A stretch of DNA of 64,000 nucleotides from a bacterium (lineage in GTDB: Bacteria > JAAXHH01): the NCBI GenBank assembly GCA_965240335.1, contig CBDEKM010000008.1:311072-375071 (forward strand). Reading direction: 5' to 3'. The notes below the pieces were generated by a model. That model worked only from the letters and a program-made list of their open reading frames with translations. It was not told the origin of the DNA and did no database searches. The position numbers and the translations under genes are program-made. How positions within the stretch are numbered: the first letter of the stretch is position 1; each line of letters opens with the position of its first letter. Of this stretch, positions 30,501-33,526 are shown in pieces.

Positions 30501-33500
30501 AAGTGAACAGTAACCGTCTTACCGGCGTCCTTCCTCCTGAACTGGGTCAACTTTCCAATCTCGAGTCCTTGGTTTTAAGTTTCAACCTATTGAATGGTCG
30601 TATTCCGTACGCTTACGGAAATCTAAAGAGGCTGCGTGTATTGTGGATATCGAACAATACTGACCTGAGGGGTCCTTTGCCCCGTGAGTTCCTCGATTTC
30701 GAAAACATCGAGAGCATAGAGTTCGGAGGAACACAGGTGTGCGCGCCGAACGACGAGGAATTCAACGCCTGGCTGGCCGGCTTGCGGAACAAAACCATCG
30801 CCCTGTGCGACGGGAGTGGTTCGGAACGTGGCTTGCTGACCGTCCTATATCACGCGACAGGTGGTCCGGCATGGGATGTCGATACGAACTGGCAGACCAG
30901 TCTATCTCTGGATCAGTGGTACGGCGTAACGACCGACGAGCACGGGCGGGTTATCGCACTGGACCTATCCGATAACAACCTGGCAGGCGAGATACCGCGG
31001 GAACTGGCGAGCCTTTCCTACCTCCGCAGTCTGCGTCTCGAAAACAATGCGGATCTTGCCGGCCCACTTCCCGTGGAGTTTACCGGATTGCGGCTTGAAA
31101 GCCTCCTGCTGGCCGGCACGGGGCTGTGCGCACCTTCCGATGAAGCGTTTCAGCAGTGGCTGCTTACGGTCCCGGACAGACAGATACTCCCCTGCGCAGT
31201 GCCCGCGGACCGCGACGCGCTGATCGCCCTGTACAAGAACCTGGGCGGCGCCCGGTGGCGTAACAACACCAACTGGCTCGGCGGACGGCCCCTCTCTCAG
31301 TGGCATGGCGTTACGACCAACCCCGAGGGCCGTGTCGTCGGACTGAATTTAGATAACAACAACCTGGTAGGGACTATCCACCCGTTCGCCGGCAGCCTGG
31401 GTGATCTCGAGGAAATGAGGTTGGGAAGCAACCGGATCAGCGGTACCATCCCATCCAGTCTGGGAGATCTAGCCGACTTGAGGGTACTGGTTCTGTCCGG
31501 CAACCGGCTCGAAGGGGGTATTCCGCCGGCACTGGGCGGTTTGGCCAGTCTCGAGTTGCTGGATCTCAGCACCAATCGTCTTGCAGGTGGTATTCCCACC
31601 GAGATTGAAGGACTTGCCAGCCTGGCGCAGATAAACCTTGCCAGGAACGTACTCTCGGGCAGCATTCCGTCCTCTATCGGCGGCCTTTCCGTACTTCGGG
31701 AGTTGCTGCTGGATACAAACAATCTGAGCGGCGAGATACCCGCGTCGCTGGGTAGGCTGTCCACCCTTGAAAGCCTGAACCTGGCCCGCAACAGGTTGTC
31801 CGGGGGAATCCCGGCGACATTCGGGAGCCTCGGCGCACTAAGGAAGCTGGATGTATCGGAAAACAGCGGCATGGCCGGTGCCTTGCCGAGTGAGACTCTC
31901 CGGCTCGAACTGGACCTGCTTTACTTGCAGGGATCGAATATCTGCGTACCACAGCATGATCGGTTTCCGTCCTGGTACGAGGGTATACCGATGCGAAACG
32001 GTGCCAATTGTCCGCCAGCATTCCGGGTATTGACATCCCTTGTCCAGGCGACCCAGACGCTGGTGGACCCCGTGCCGCTCGTTGCCGGAAGGCCCGCGTT
32101 GTTGCGCGTGTTCCTCACCACCGATAGCGGCGTTGCCAACATGCCGCCGATCCGCGTTACTTTCTTCGAGGCGGGTACGGAGATTCATCGGGTTGAGATA
32201 GCCGCAAGGGGTGACATAGTACCCGGTCAAATCGACGAGAGCGCACTCGGTAATTCGGCCAATGCAATCGTGCCGGGTGAAGTGATCGTACCAGGACTCG
32301 AACTGGTGGTCGAGGTCGATCCCGATGAAACGCTGGGCCCGGGAACAGACGTTGGCGGCCGATTCCCGGAAACCGGACGTTCCAGTGTGGATGTTCAGGA
32401 GATACAGGCCCTGGAATTGACCCTGGTTCCCCTGCTGTGGGAGCCGGATCCGGACTATTCCGTCGTATTGGGGACCACGGGGCTGTCCGGGGACGACGAA
32501 CTGTTTCATATGACGCGCGACCTGCTGCCGATGGGGGATTTCGATCTCGCGGTAAGGGATCCGTTGTGGACCTCGGTGGATCCTATCGCCAAGAGTGATC
32601 GGTCGGACGTGCTGTTCCGTGAACTGGGCGCTGCACGTACCCTGGACGGTTCCAGCAGACACTACATCGGTGTCCTGCACCGGTTTTCTGGTCCTGCCAA
32701 TTTCAATGTCATTGCGGAACAGCCCGGCTACCTGAGTCTAGGCTTCGTCCATGACCGCATCATCGCACACGCCCTCGGACACAACATGAACCTTGGTCAC
32801 GCCGATTGCGGTTTCGGTTATCGGCTCGCCAATTTTCCGGGCTACGACTACCCCCACGAGGACGGGGCCATCGGTTCCTGGGGCTATGACTTGCGGACAA
32901 ACCGACTGATTTCACCGGACGCGCCGGACCTGATGACGAACTGCTGGCCTTCGTGGATCAGTGATTTTCATTTCAGAAAAGCAATGCGGTACCGCTTGAG
33001 CGATGAAGAGCTTCCGGTCAGAATCACCCCCAACTCAGCGGATGCCGGCCGCTCCCTGATGCTATGGGGCGGCCTGGAGAGTTCGGGAGATCTCGTGCTC
33101 GAACCCGCATTCGTTGTCGATGCACCCGCAACGCTCCCAGGGTTCGGCGGACTGGGCGGCCCTTACCGGATCTCGGGCGAAGACACCTCAGGAAACGTGT
33201 TGTTTGATTTGAGTTTTGATATGCCGGCAACAAACGACACGGTGGGCGGCGCTTTTGCCTTCACGGTACCGTTTCGGTCGGACTGGTCCCATCAGCTGTC
33301 ACGCATTACGCTTACAGGTCCGGAAGGCTTTGGTGAAATGACCAAGGAGAGCGAAAATGAAGTCGCGTTGATCCTGGACAGTGACACCGGTCAGGTCCGT
33401 GGATTCCTCAGAGATACCGCTAATTCCGACTTATCCCGTCGAATTTCCGTACGTGACTCGCTGTATCCGGGTATGGACATCGTGATCAGCCGCGGTGTGC

Positions 33501-33526
33501 CGGACATGAACGCCTGGAAACGATAA
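27506..33526 (+). CDS. Giant surface lipoprotein: Pro-rich linker, 7 Big_2 domains, 4 capped cassettes of plant-type 24-residue LRRs, C-terminal reprolysin-like (metzincin) domain with HAxxH
   Basis: First ATG of a 2020-codon ORF (track start 27464 is TTG). Lipobox LLSTC|GK. (PQPPT)n linker. Big_2-like ~85-aa units x7 (to about nt 29160). Four cassettes, each with an LYxAxxGxxWxxxxNWLxxxPLxxWxGV cap, LxxLxxLxLxxNxLxGxIPxELGx repeats, and an LxLxGTQLCxPxDxxFxxWL C-cap. C-terminal IAHALGHNMNLGHAD motif. Confidence 0.75.
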   Translation: MPRIYNVAAFALTASLALVLLSTCGKDSPTRPQPPTPQPPTPQPPPPAPVATRIAVTPSPFAFASLGQVQQLTAVVYDQNGTVMPGVAVSWTSGDTNVVTVTGQGSVRAVGIGSTQITAKSGGASATIPVSVAQEAASIRITPAMVGFGAVGRQQQLAAAVFDGNRNEISGAAVAWSSNRPSVATVTDDGLVTAVSNGMAQITATYGRVSMTVTVTVSQAAESVTILPMSARLASIGETIQLTATVEDGEGNEIQDAAVSWSSGDPMVASVDNEGLVTAVGGGMTDVSAALGVASASIPVAVMQEIAALEVAPETAALVVGDTLQMSVRVTDALGVVVDNADVTWSSSVETVAIVDPEGLVLAVGEGSVTITTAAGDLTAEAHLEVAPLIPTALQVYPESLRLVSLGEIAELSAEVRDQRNRSMPDVLVSWSTGDPAVAEVDEAGRVISVGEGETEITVHVEDLSATVPVVVEQVVAALSISTVAAEMVLGDTLRIQAQARDALDMPVTSATIDWTSSNESVAFVNSEGLVSAVGEGMVDITVSAGSVSIAVRITVSHQDRPLLAALYNALNGPDWNTQTNWLSSEPLDYWHGVTIGDDHRVSALNLSNNNLSGALPPVLGQLSGLQGLALNGNSLTGSVPPELGMLTALTHLYLYENQLSGEIPPELGQLVNLVHLCLDRNQLTGSLPAELGRLTNLLWLHLYYNIELTGPLPASFTDLRLDALLLQGTQLCVPDEPGFVAWLEGIADSRVSICGRLDSDREALVALYHATRGTDWNDNTNWLSEKPLNNWFGVVTDANGRVTQLRLGSNNLNGTLPGELGQLSFLTDLHIGSNGLTGELPSEISNLAALEQLRIGNNLMTGPIPAELGQLKSLTAFSAYDNHFTGAIPPEIGQLSNLRFLTLPNNELTGEIPPELGRNTELSWLQLDRNALTGVIPPELGGLSSLRGLFLGSNQLTGGIPPELGNLTGLAYLELGWNELTGIIPPQLGGLQKLERLQVNSNRLTGVLPPELGQLSNLESLVLSFNLLNGRIPYAYGNLKRLRVLWISNNTDLRGPLPREFLDFENIESIEFGGTQVCAPNDEEFNAWLAGLRNKTIALCDGSGSERGLLTVLYHATGGPAWDVDTNWQTSLSLDQWYGVTTDEHGRVIALDLSDNNLAGEIPRELASLSYLRSLRLENNADLAGPLPVEFTGLRLESLLLAGTGLCAPSDEAFQQWLLTVPDRQILPCAVPADRDALIALYKNLGGARWRNNTNWLGGRPLSQWHGVTTNPEGRVVGLNLDNNNLVGTIHPFAGSLGDLEEMRLGSNRISGTIPSSLGDLADLRVLVLSGNRLEGGIPPALGGLASLELLDLSTNRLAGGIPTEIEGLASLAQINLARNVLSGSIPSSIGGLSVLRELLLDTNNLSGEIPASLGRLSTLESLNLARNRLSGGIPATFGSLGALRKLDVSENSGMAGALPSETLRLELDLLYLQGSNICVPQHDRFPSWYEGIPMRNGANCPPAFRVLTSLVQATQTLVDPVPLVAGRPALLRVFLTTDSGVANMPPIRVTFFEAGTEIHRVEIAARGDIVPGQIDESALGNSANAIVPGEVIVPGLELVVEVDPDETLGPGTDVGGRFPETGRSSVDVQEIQALELTLVPLLWEPDPDYSVVLGTTGLSGDDELFHMTRDLLPMGDFDLAVRDPLWTSVDPIAKSDRSDVLFRELGAARTLDGSSRHYIGVLHRFSGPANFNVIAEQPGYLSLGFVHDRIIAHALGHNMNLGHADCGFGYRLANFPGYDYPHEDGAIGSWGYDLRTNRLISPDAPDLMTNCWPSWISDFHFRKAMRYRLSDEELPVRITPNSADAGRSLMLWGGLESSGDLVLEPAFVVDAPATLPGFGGLGGPYRISGEDTSGNVLFDLSFDMPATNDTVGGAFAFTVPFRSDWSHQLSRITLTGPEGFGEMTKESENEVALILDSDTGQVRGFLRDTANSDLSRRISVRDSLYPGMDIVISRGVPDMNAWKR

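What the first reader, a model, noticed from the sequence alone, without database searches (positions are those of the whole stretch)
32700..33526. C-terminal reprolysin-like metzincin domain with HAxxHxxxxxH (catalytic Glu to Ala): a probable pseudo-protease
IAHALGHNMNLGHAD keeps the three zinc-ligand histidines at H-x3-H-x5-H spacing as in HELGHNLGMxHD. The general-base Glu is replaced by Ala (GCC, two changes from GAR) and the conserved Gly is shifted. The domain may bind zinc or substrate without cleaving, acting as a recognition or decoy module fused to the LRR array.
Basis: partly seen in the sequence, partly recalled or inferred. Interest (0 to 1): 0.55.

Follow-up and report, generated by a model that had tools for sequence, protein, structure and literature searches.

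The report
Catalytically dead metzincin on LRR lipoprotein
The tail of a 2,000-residue bacterial surface protein is a zinc-protease domain that has lost its two chemistry residues but is still kept intact by selection, which makes it a clear but unsurprising natural "pseudo-protease".

Summary
HALGHNMNLGH lies at aa 1769-1779 (window 32768-32800), with Ala1770 encoded by GCC at 32771-32773. It is the zinc motif of a real metzincin domain in a 2006/2020-aa lipoprotein: 6 Big_2 domains, 4 plant-like LRR modules, an Ig-like domain, the metzincin, and a beta domain.

In 267 aligned homologous domains, mostly from Gemmatimonadota, 256 keep HExxH…H. The Glu-to-Ala change defines one small clade found at the same syntenic locus in five assemblies, three of them with intact ~2,000-aa ORFs. 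This clade has also lost the Tyr two residues after the Met-turn Met (DLMSYC to DLMTNC). It keeps the three His, the Met and a Cys pair.

At least 7 other lineages broke the motif independently, and nearly all of them lost that Tyr too. dN/dS for the dead domain is 0.18-0.25, so it is under purifying selection.

Most likely this is a non-catalytic, probably zinc-binding module kept for binding. The ligand is unknown and inactivity has not been tested biochemically. It is a new member of a known kind (non-peptidase metzincin homologues), of moderate interest.

The parts
27506..33526 (+). Whole gene. It gives 2006 aa from ATG 27506 (the start used in the public record, P0385). The mechanical ORF starts at TTG 27464 (2020 aa), and that numbering is used below.
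27506..27652 (+). Lipoprotein-type signal peptide (MPRIYNVAAFALTASLALVLLST-C, Cys38) followed by a Pro-rich linker (PQPPTPQPPTPQPPPPAP).
   Evidence: Read from the sequence. The same N-terminus is conserved in L001, L002 and P0386. No signal-peptide predictor was run.
27653..29188 (+). Six Big_2 Ig-like domains forming the stalk.
   Evidence: Pfam PF02368, 6 stretches, E 3.6e-41. The boundaries are approximate.
29189..32011 (+). Four LRR modules (about aa 576-769, 770-1115, 1116-1244, 1245-1516). Each has an N-cap ending in W-x-G-V (aa 605, 806, 1152, 1280), 24-residue plant-type repeats, and a C-cap with a Cys pair (747/769, 1093/1115, 1222/1244, 1494/1516).
   Evidence: Pfam LRR_1, LRR_8 and LRR_14; regex map; best solved sequence relatives are the plant receptors GSO1 and FLS2.
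32060..32413 (+). N-terminal Ig-like beta-sandwich of the conserved C-terminal unit. Its arrangement with the metzincin domain resembles StcE.
   Evidence: AF2 strands at residues 13-86 of the model; StcE aligned over 287 residues; conserved across the family.
32414..33019 (+). Metzincin catalytic-type domain (aa 1651-1852), here catalytically dead.
32768..32800 (+). Zinc motif H1769-A-L-G-H1773-N-M-N-L-G-H1779 on the active-site helix. Ala1770 (GCC, 32771-32773) replaces the general-base Glu.
32804..32809 (+). Asp1781, where the family has Pro in 235 of 256 motif-intact domains, and Cys1782, the first Cys of the conserved pair.
32927..32944 (+). Met-turn D-L-M1824-T-N1826-C1827. The Met and the Cys are kept. 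Asn1826 replaces the family's Tyr at Met+2.
   Evidence: The role of Tyr at Met+2 in other metzincins is taken from PMC6949598.
33020..33523 (+). C-terminal beta-sandwich region (aa 1853-2020), conserved in the family. Only weak fold matches were found, to macroglobulin- and Ig-like domains.

Best explanation
The last ~490 residues form a StcE-like (M66-like) metzincin unit: an Ig-like domain, a catalytic-type domain and a beta-sandwich. In the common ancestor of a small Gemmatimonadota clade, this unit lost the general-base Glu of HExxH (now Ala1770) and the Tyr two residues after the Met-turn Met (now Asn1826). It kept everything that builds the fold and the metal site: the three His ligands, the Met-turn Met and a conserved Cys pair. 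So the domain most likely still folds and binds zinc, and can still take a polypeptide into its cleft, but cannot activate the water needed to cut it. It sits at the far end of a lipid-anchored stalk of six Big_2 domains and four LRR modules. There it would act as a non-catalytic binding head, an adhesin or a natural 'substrate trap', alongside the LRR arrays. What is shown: homology, fold, which residues are lost and kept, monophyly and age of the change, intact ORFs, and purifying selection. What is inferred: zinc retention, loss of activity, the binding function, surface exposure, and the identity of any ligand.
For: The fold and family are established. Glu is present in 256 of 267 homologous domains. 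Ala is found only in the monophyletic clade of the query, L002, P0001/L001 and P0122/P0386. All of these lie at the same locus between rhaM/aldo-keto reductase and PhyH genes. The ORFs are intact in the window (2006 aa), in the complete MAG chromosome OZ245326.1 (1991-aa ORF) and in a 35x 2.6-Mb contig (2024 aa). The Ala codon varies synonymously, GCC versus GCA. dN/dS for window against L002 is 0.175 for the metzincin domain and 0.12 from the motif to the Met-turn, compared with 0.27 for Big_2 and LRR and 0.14 for the flanking PhyH gene. Across all pairs the C-terminal unit gives 0.21-0.28. The clade's shared non-conservative departures from family-conserved columns (E238A, P249D, D261G/R, Y294N) all fall between the motif and the Met-turn. 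Across the family, 11 domains in at least 7 independent lineages have a broken motif. Ten of these 11 also lack the Met+2 Tyr, against 20 of 256 motif-intact domains (Fisher p 7e-10 by sequence, 4e-7 by lineage). All 11 keep the Met and both Cys. Their root-to-tip lengths are not inflated (0.67-0.78 against a median of 0.69). From the literature: Glu is the metzincin general base/acid, mirolysin E225A lacks activity, and a Tyr at Met+2 lies next to the zinc or ligates it (PMC6949598). StcE E447D is inactive (PMC8092303).
Against: No biochemistry exists, so residual or alternative catalysis cannot be excluded. When the more distant orthologue L004 is added, the metzincin domain is only averagely conserved (3-way identity 0.51 against 0.49-0.57 elsewhere), so nothing indicates special constraint on the cleft. 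Other dead lineages have lost the His ligands as well, so zinc binding is not generally needed by dead members. A paralogue with Big_2 and LRR but no metzincin domain exists (L001:16781-20746), so the scaffold can function without this head. One orthologue, L001 on a 4x contig, carries stops and frameshifts. dS is near saturation (0.7-1.3), so the dN/dS values are rough. The tree is neighbour-joining only.
Confidence: 0.7

Rival explanations
1. The domain is a structural relic. It is kept only because it is needed for folding, stability or export of the large protein. All function lies in the LRR and Big_2 parts, and the old cleft and metal site do nothing.
For: A Big_2+LRR paralogue lacks the domain altogether. 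Other dead lineages have lost the His ligands. With L004 included, the domain is no better conserved than the rest of the protein.
Against: All three His, the Met and the Cys pair are kept in all five HA-clade sequences despite dS of about 1 or more. The lowest dN/dS in the window-L002 comparison (0.12) lies exactly over the segment from the motif to the Met-turn.
Confidence: 0.17
2. It is still an active peptidase. Zinc-bound water would be activated by another residue, or catalysis would proceed slowly without a general base, possibly with a changed specificity.
For: The complete metal site and the Met-turn are preserved. A new acidic residue, Asp1781, appears two positions after the third His in three members of the clade.
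Against: Glu-to-Ala and even Glu-to-Asp substitutions abolish activity in the metzincins tested (PMC6949598; PMC8092303). The Met+2 Tyr is lost at the same time. Asp1781 is absent from the P0122/P0386 branch, which has HAP, so it cannot be an ancestral compensation. Across the family, motif loss and Tyr loss go together, as expected if catalysis has been abandoned.
Confidence: 0.08
3. The gene is a decaying pseudogene, or the Ala is an assembly error.
For: The L001 orthologue has three in-frame TGA codons and at least three frameshifts. L003 has two frameshifts.
Against: Those two contigs have 4x and 2x long-read coverage. The 35x cluster mate of L003, which is at least 90% identical, is intact. 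A 6-kb ORF is open in three independent high-quality assemblies. dN/dS is 0.2-0.3. Ala is seen in five assemblies with two different codons.
Confidence: 0.03

Closest known systems
StcE of enterohaemorrhagic E. coli (peptidase family M66, PDB 3UJZ)
   Different: Sequence identity is only 14%. The Pfam match covers 52 of 306 profile positions, at the cut-off. The query has Ala in place of the catalytic Glu. The domain is fused to Big_2 and LRR arrays and to a lipoprotein anchor, rather than being a free secreted mucinase. Nothing suggests mucin as the substrate.
Adamalysin/reprolysin catalytic domains (M12B: atrolysin C, ADAM8, ADAMTS5), including the non-catalytic ADAMs such as ADAM22
   Different: No Reprolysin Pfam model hits the query. 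There is no Asp directly after the third His. There are no disintegrin or Cys-rich domains. The organism is bacterial. The query keeps all three zinc ligands, whereas (from my own knowledge, not checked here) the zinc motif of ADAM22 is degenerate.
Engineered Glu-to-Ala or Glu-to-Asp metzincin mutants (mirolysin E225A, StcE E447D)
   Same: They carry the same single-residue change at the general base. Such mutants lack activity but fold and keep zinc, as in the promirolysin E225A crystal structures (PMC6949598; PMC8092303). Mirolysin also has a Tyr at Met+2 next to the zinc, as this family does.
   Different: Those are laboratory constructs. Here the change is natural, fixed in a clade, accompanied by loss of the Met+2 Tyr, and maintained by selection.
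Bacterial LRR surface or effector proteins (Leptospira LIC LRR proteins, Xanthomonas XopL/XopAE/XopAC)
   Same: They give sub-threshold NCBIfam hits and matches to solved structures for the LRR modules. The repeats are of the same plant-like 24-residue type.
   Different: All scores are far below the family cut-offs. None of those proteins carries a metzincin domain.

Membership tests
Metzincin clan | Three zinc ligands in H-x3-H-x5-H on and after the active-site helix | tested here: met
   H1769, H1773 and H1779. They are aligned with the family motif and with the HELGHNLGMEH of snake-venom enzymes. The helix at model residues 232-242 carries the first two His.
Metzincin clan | General base/acid Glu after the first His (HExxH) | tested here: not met
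   Ala1770, codon GCC. Glu is present in 256 of 267 relatives.
Metzincin clan | Met-turn beneath the metal site | tested here: met
   M1824 lies in DLMTNC. This column is Met in 266 of 267 domains.
Metzincin clan | Catalytic-domain fold | tested here: met
Peptidase M66 (Pfam PF10462, StcE-like) | Profile score at or above the Pfam gathering score | tested here: inconclusive
   The C-terminal unit alone scores 21.4 bits against 20.6. The full protein scores 18.9 bits, below the cut-off. Only profile positions 194-245 of 306 are matched. 26 of 27 relatives match, best E 1.4e-10.
Peptidase M66 (Pfam PF10462, StcE-like) | StcE-like multidomain fold (Ig-like domain packed on the metzincin domain) | tested here: met
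Peptidase M66 (Pfam PF10462, StcE-like) | Zinc-dependent endopeptidase activity | not testable with these tools
   The Glu is absent, and StcE E447D is inactive.
Reprolysin/adamalysin (M12B) | Match to the Pfam Reprolysin models | tested here: not met
   The query has no hit at E up to 1. Among 27 relatives, 9 weakly match Reprolysin_3 and 8 match Reprolysin_5 (best E 9.6e-6), always below M66.
Reprolysin/adamalysin (M12B) | HExxHxxGxxHD, with Asp immediately after the third His | tested here: not met
   The query has H-A-D and the family consensus is H-A-P-C-G.
Reprolysin/adamalysin (M12B) | Catalytic-domain fold | tested here: met
Pseudoenzyme (non-peptidase homologue of a peptidase family) | Clear homology to a family whose members are mostly catalytically competent | tested here: met
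   E values are down to 1e-138 against HE-bearing relatives. 256 of 267 domains have an intact motif.
Pseudoenzyme (non-peptidase homologue of a peptidase family) | An essential catalytic residue replaced, as a derived state | tested here: met
   Glu to Ala plus loss of the Met+2 Tyr, both confined to a monophyletic clade nested among HE sequences.
Pseudoenzyme (non-peptidase homologue of a peptidase family) | Maintained by selection rather than decaying | tested here: met
   There are three intact ~2,000-aa orthologues and dN/dS is 0.18-0.28. dS is close to saturation, so the values are rough.
Pseudoenzyme (non-peptidase homologue of a peptidase family) | Demonstrated lack of catalytic activity | not testable with these tools
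   This needs recombinant protein and protease assays.

The most novel reading that the evidence does not exclude
Gemmatimonadota carry a very large, uncharacterised family of surface lipoproteins in which LRR arrays are fused to a StcE-like metzincin (3,565 cluster representatives at E up to 1e-3). Within it, catalysis has been switched off repeatedly, in at least 8 lineages, by coordinated loss of the Glu and the Met-turn Tyr while the fold is kept. The dead copies would be natural substrate traps or decoys. They would bind the same, possibly host or prey, ligands as the active paralogues in the same genome, and so tune adhesion against cleavage.
Probability: 0.25. Interest if true: 0.55.

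Novelty: new member of a known kind. Interest (0 to 1): 0.38.

Why it matters
Catalytically dead relatives of proteases are a recognised class: iRhoms, the non-catalytic ADAMs, and the 'non-peptidase homologues' listed in MEROPS (the last from my own knowledge). Well-supported bacterial metzincin examples with evidence of selection are few. This one is unusually clean. The same substitution that biochemists engineer to make inactive metzincins has been fixed in nature. It is accompanied by loss of a second active-site residue and is preserved in several genomes. The correlated Glu/Tyr loss across independent lineages also predicts, from sequence alone, that the Met+2 Tyr is catalytically important in this uncharacterised M66-like family. 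In practice, automated annotation as 'M66 family metalloprotease' would be wrong for this gene. The family itself, thousands of LRR-metzincin fusions in a poorly studied phylum, would merit experimental work. None of this overturns existing ideas.

Tried and rejected
1. A PDB sequence search with the first alignment (A1) was swamped by LRR columns from the longer homologues. I repeated it with short, LRR-free members (A2).

2. NCBIfam gave nothing for the C-terminal unit, and only sub-threshold LRR effector hits for the whole protein.

3. I found no paralogue of the domain elsewhere in the window.

4. I considered that the gene is a pseudogene, because the L001 orthologue has three TGA stops and several frameshifts. 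I rejected this as the general state after finding intact orthologues in a complete MAG chromosome and in a 35x contig. It remains unresolved for L001 itself.

5. I considered claiming that the dead active site is the best-conserved part of the protein, from window-versus-L002 dN/dS. I withdrew the claim after the three-way comparison with L004 showed only average conservation.

6. I considered Asp1781 (HAD) as a compensating general base. I rejected it as an ancestral feature because the P0122/P0386 branch has HAP.

7. Exact look-ups of the window protein and of a neighbouring protein returned no contig. The cluster look-up did find the window protein, starting at ATG 27506.

8. Literature searches on Palauibacterales and on sponge-associated Gemmatimonadota found no description of this protein family. 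This reflects only the library that was searched.

9. I could not inspect model coordinates, so distances from Asn1826 or Asp1781 to the metal site were not measured.
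Full report
**The gene.** The finding lies in one long + strand ORF, 27464..33526 (2020 aa from TTG). The public record of the same protein starts at ATG 27506 (2006 aa, P0385). That start gives a lipoprotein-type N-terminus (…LALVLLST-C38-GKDSP) followed by a Pro-rich linker. This was read by eye, and it is conserved in the orthologues. Pfam finds six Big_2 domains and a long run of LRRs. The LRRs fall into four modules. Each has an N-cap ending in W-x-G-V, 24-residue plant-type repeats, and a C-cap with a Cys pair. The best solved sequence relatives of these repeats are plant receptor ectodomains such as GSO1 and FLS2. The last ~490 residues (window 32060-33523) form a unit conserved across a large family.

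**The observation.** IAHALGHNMNLGHAD is present. H1769, H1773 and H1779 lie at 32768-32800, and Ala1770 is GCC at 32771-32773. The pattern H-x3-H-x5-H occurs once in the protein, against 0.006 expected by chance. It sits in the column of the HExxHxxxxxH motif of its homologues. The finding's start coordinate, 32700, falls inside the domain. The metzincin domain itself is about 32414-33019, flanked by an Ig-like domain and a C-terminal beta region. The 'shifted Gly' is not a real deviation: the canonical Gly position is N, G or S (38/38/34) in the family, and the residue before the third His is variable.

**What the domain is.**
- Pfam gives Peptidase_M66 across the motif, right at the cut-off (21.4 against 20.6 bits for the unit alone, 18.9 for the whole protein).
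- At family level, 26 of 27 relatives match M66 (best E 1.4e-10), and smaller numbers match Reprolysin_3 and Reprolysin_5.
- A profile of LRR-free family members finds snake-venom reprolysins as the best solved sequence relatives (E 6e-4), with the family's HE aligned to their HE.
- An AF2 model built on 67 sequences is confident (pLDDT 89.7, pTM 0.91). It shows the expected helix carrying the first two His and a C-terminal helix after the Met-turn.
- Foldseek gives StcE as the only significant hit (E 6e-9).

So this is a metzincin. The catalytic core looks adamalysin-like, and the overall unit is StcE/M66-like.

**Organism.** Named homologues of the domain come from Gemmatimonadota MAGs, including 'Candidatus Palauibacter'. 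A housekeeping-type gene in the window (20253-22127) has named relatives at 83-86% identity that are also Gemmatimonadota. The flanking genes are ordinary metabolic genes: GFO/IDH/MocA oxidoreductase, aldo-keto reductase, PhyH, an NHL propeller and an amidohydrolase. They give no functional link.

**HE versus HA in homologues.** Among the first 119 homologues with the motif, 118 have HE. An exhaustive HMMER search of 1.84 billion cluster representatives finds 3,565 relatives at E up to 1e-3, of which 941 are at E up to 1e-30. In 267 aligned domains, 256 have an intact HExxH…H.

HA occurs only in the query, P0001 (L001) and P0122 (L003), which form a monophyletic group in a neighbour-joining tree. 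Two further sequences found afterwards also carry HA: the OZ245326.1 locus (L002) and P0386 (L004). All five lie at the same syntenic locus, so they are positional orthologues. The change dates to their common ancestor.

Three of the five are intact ~2,000-aa ORFs in good assemblies: the window, the complete MAG chromosome OZ245326.1, and a 35x 2.6-Mb contig. The Ala codon is GCC in two of them and GCA in the third. The other two copies, on 4x and 2x long-read contigs, are broken by frameshifts, and L001 also has three TGA codons. Because the 35x cluster mate of L003 is intact, low-coverage error is the simplest explanation. L001 is not resolved.

**A second loss, and a family-wide pattern.** I compared the clade with the 94 columns that are at least 85% conserved in the rest of the family. 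The non-conservative departures shared by the query and P0001 are E238A, P249D, D261G/R and Y294N, in domain numbering. All four lie between the zinc motif and the Met-turn.

Y294 is the Tyr two residues after the Met-turn Met (family DLMSYC, query DLMTNC). In mirolysin the Tyr at the same offset lies next to the zinc. In astacins and serralysins such Tyr residues ligate the zinc in the unbound enzyme and swing out when substrate binds, the 'tyrosine switch' (PMC6949598).

Across the 267 domains, 11 have a broken motif: three HA, plus HQ, HH, HQ..R, HE..R, TQ, RQ, RT and RG. They fall in at least 7-8 separate places on the tree. Ten of the 11 also lack this Tyr, against 20 of the 256 motif-intact domains (Fisher p 7e-10 by sequence, 4e-7 counting lineages). 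All 11 keep the Met-turn Met and both Cys of the conserved pair. Their branch lengths are not inflated. The pattern is that residues for chemistry are lost together while residues for the fold are kept. That is what abandoning catalysis while retaining the domain should look like. It also predicts that the Met+2 Tyr matters for catalysis in the active members.

**Selection.** Nei-Gojobori estimates for window against L002 give dN/dS values of:
- 0.26 for the whole gene
- 0.27 for Big_2
- 0.275 for the LRRs
- 0.175 for the metzincin domain
- 0.12 for the segment from the motif to the Met-turn
- 0.23 for the C-terminal beta region
- 0.14 for the flanking PhyH gene

All pairwise values for the C-terminal unit are 0.21-0.28. 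dS is 0.6-1.3, so these numbers are rough, but they are far from neutrality. With the more distant L004 included, the metzincin domain is only averagely conserved (three-way identity 0.51 against 0.49-0.57 for the other parts). I therefore do not claim special constraint on the cleft. I claim only that the dead domain is under the same order of purifying selection as the rest of the protein. The whole gene evolves faster than its neighbours, at about 74% DNA identity against 82-88%.

**Mechanism.** In metzincins the Glu is the general base/acid. Mirolysin E225A lacks activity yet crystallises with the zinc site intact (PMC6949598). Even the conservative E447D change inactivates StcE (PMC8092303). 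Ala1770 together with Asn1826 therefore most likely gives a domain that folds, still binds zinc through the conserved His triad, and can still accept a peptide in the cleft, but cannot hydrolyse it. Its position at the distal end of a lipid-anchored Big_2 stalk carrying four LRR modules suggests a binding head on a surface protein, that is, an adhesin or a natural substrate trap. The trap or decoy idea is plausible because an HE paralogue (P0009) lies on the same 2.6-Mb contig as the intact HA orthologue, although that paralogue looks disrupted by an IS110 element. Zinc retention, inactivity, surface exposure and the ligand are all inferred.

**Rivals.**
- *A relic kept only for folding or export.* In favour: a Big_2+LRR paralogue without the domain, and dead lineages that have lost the His ligands. 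Against: the preserved His triad, and the low dN/dS over the motif segment.
- *Residual or alternative catalysis.* Asp1781 is a candidate base, but it is absent from the P0122/P0386 branch, and the joint Glu/Tyr loss argues against this reading.
- *Pseudogene or sequencing artefact.* Three intact 6-kb ORFs and five independent assemblies argue against it.

Noticed in passing
window 45171-58121 (+): A 4316-aa ORF with three Calx-beta domains and a weak, sub-threshold autotransporter beta-domain hit near the C-terminus. It is probably another giant surface protein.
   Followed up: partly
L001:16781-20746, against window 38265-38993: The related genome carries an extra 1321-aa lipoprotein with Big_2 and LRR modules that ends right after the LRR C-cap, so it has no metzincin domain. 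The window and L002 have only a ~0.7-0.9 kb intergenic gap at that position (GC 0.48 in the window). This is presence/absence variation of LRR genes between close relatives.
   Followed up: partly
L001:5868-11482: The orthologue on a 4x long-read contig has three in-frame TGA codons (two at Trp TGG positions, one at an Arg codon) and at least three frameshifts, while ~15 kb of flanking genes are intact. Whether this is sequencing error or strain-level pseudogenisation is not resolved.
   Followed up: partly
L005:971-7662: On the same 2.6-Mb contig as the intact HA orthologue, an HE-bearing paralogue (P0009) has its upstream Big_2 and LRR parts split into several ORFs. They are interrupted by an IS110-family transposase gene at L005:4123-5247.
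   Followed up: no
window 29189-32011: The four LRR modules look like plant receptor-kinase ectodomains. They have 24-residue repeats and an LRRNT-like cap (…NW…W-x-GV), and GSO1 and FLS2 are the best solved sequence matches. Each module is closed by a Cys-pair cap. This is unusual for a bacterial lipoprotein.
   Followed up: partly
P0121 (HE motifs at aa 1001 and 1793) and P0123 (aa 694 and 1650): Some family members carry two complete HE-type metzincin units in one polypeptide.
   Followed up: no
window 27464-27506: The mechanical ORF starts at TTG 27464, but the public protein record and the orthologues start at the ATG at 27506, which gives a lipoprotein signal peptide.
   Followed up: yes
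P0068, P0241, P0257, P0238, P0142, P0166, P0194, P0206: These are independent family members with degenerate zinc motifs (RG, RQ, RT, TQ, HQ, HH, or third His changed to Arg). Several have lost the metal ligands altogether, yet all keep the Met-turn Met and the Cys pair.
   Followed up: partly
window 673-3330 (-): An 885-aa ORF with sub-threshold similarity to the gliding-motility ABC transporter components GldF and GldG, fused in one protein.
   Followed up: no
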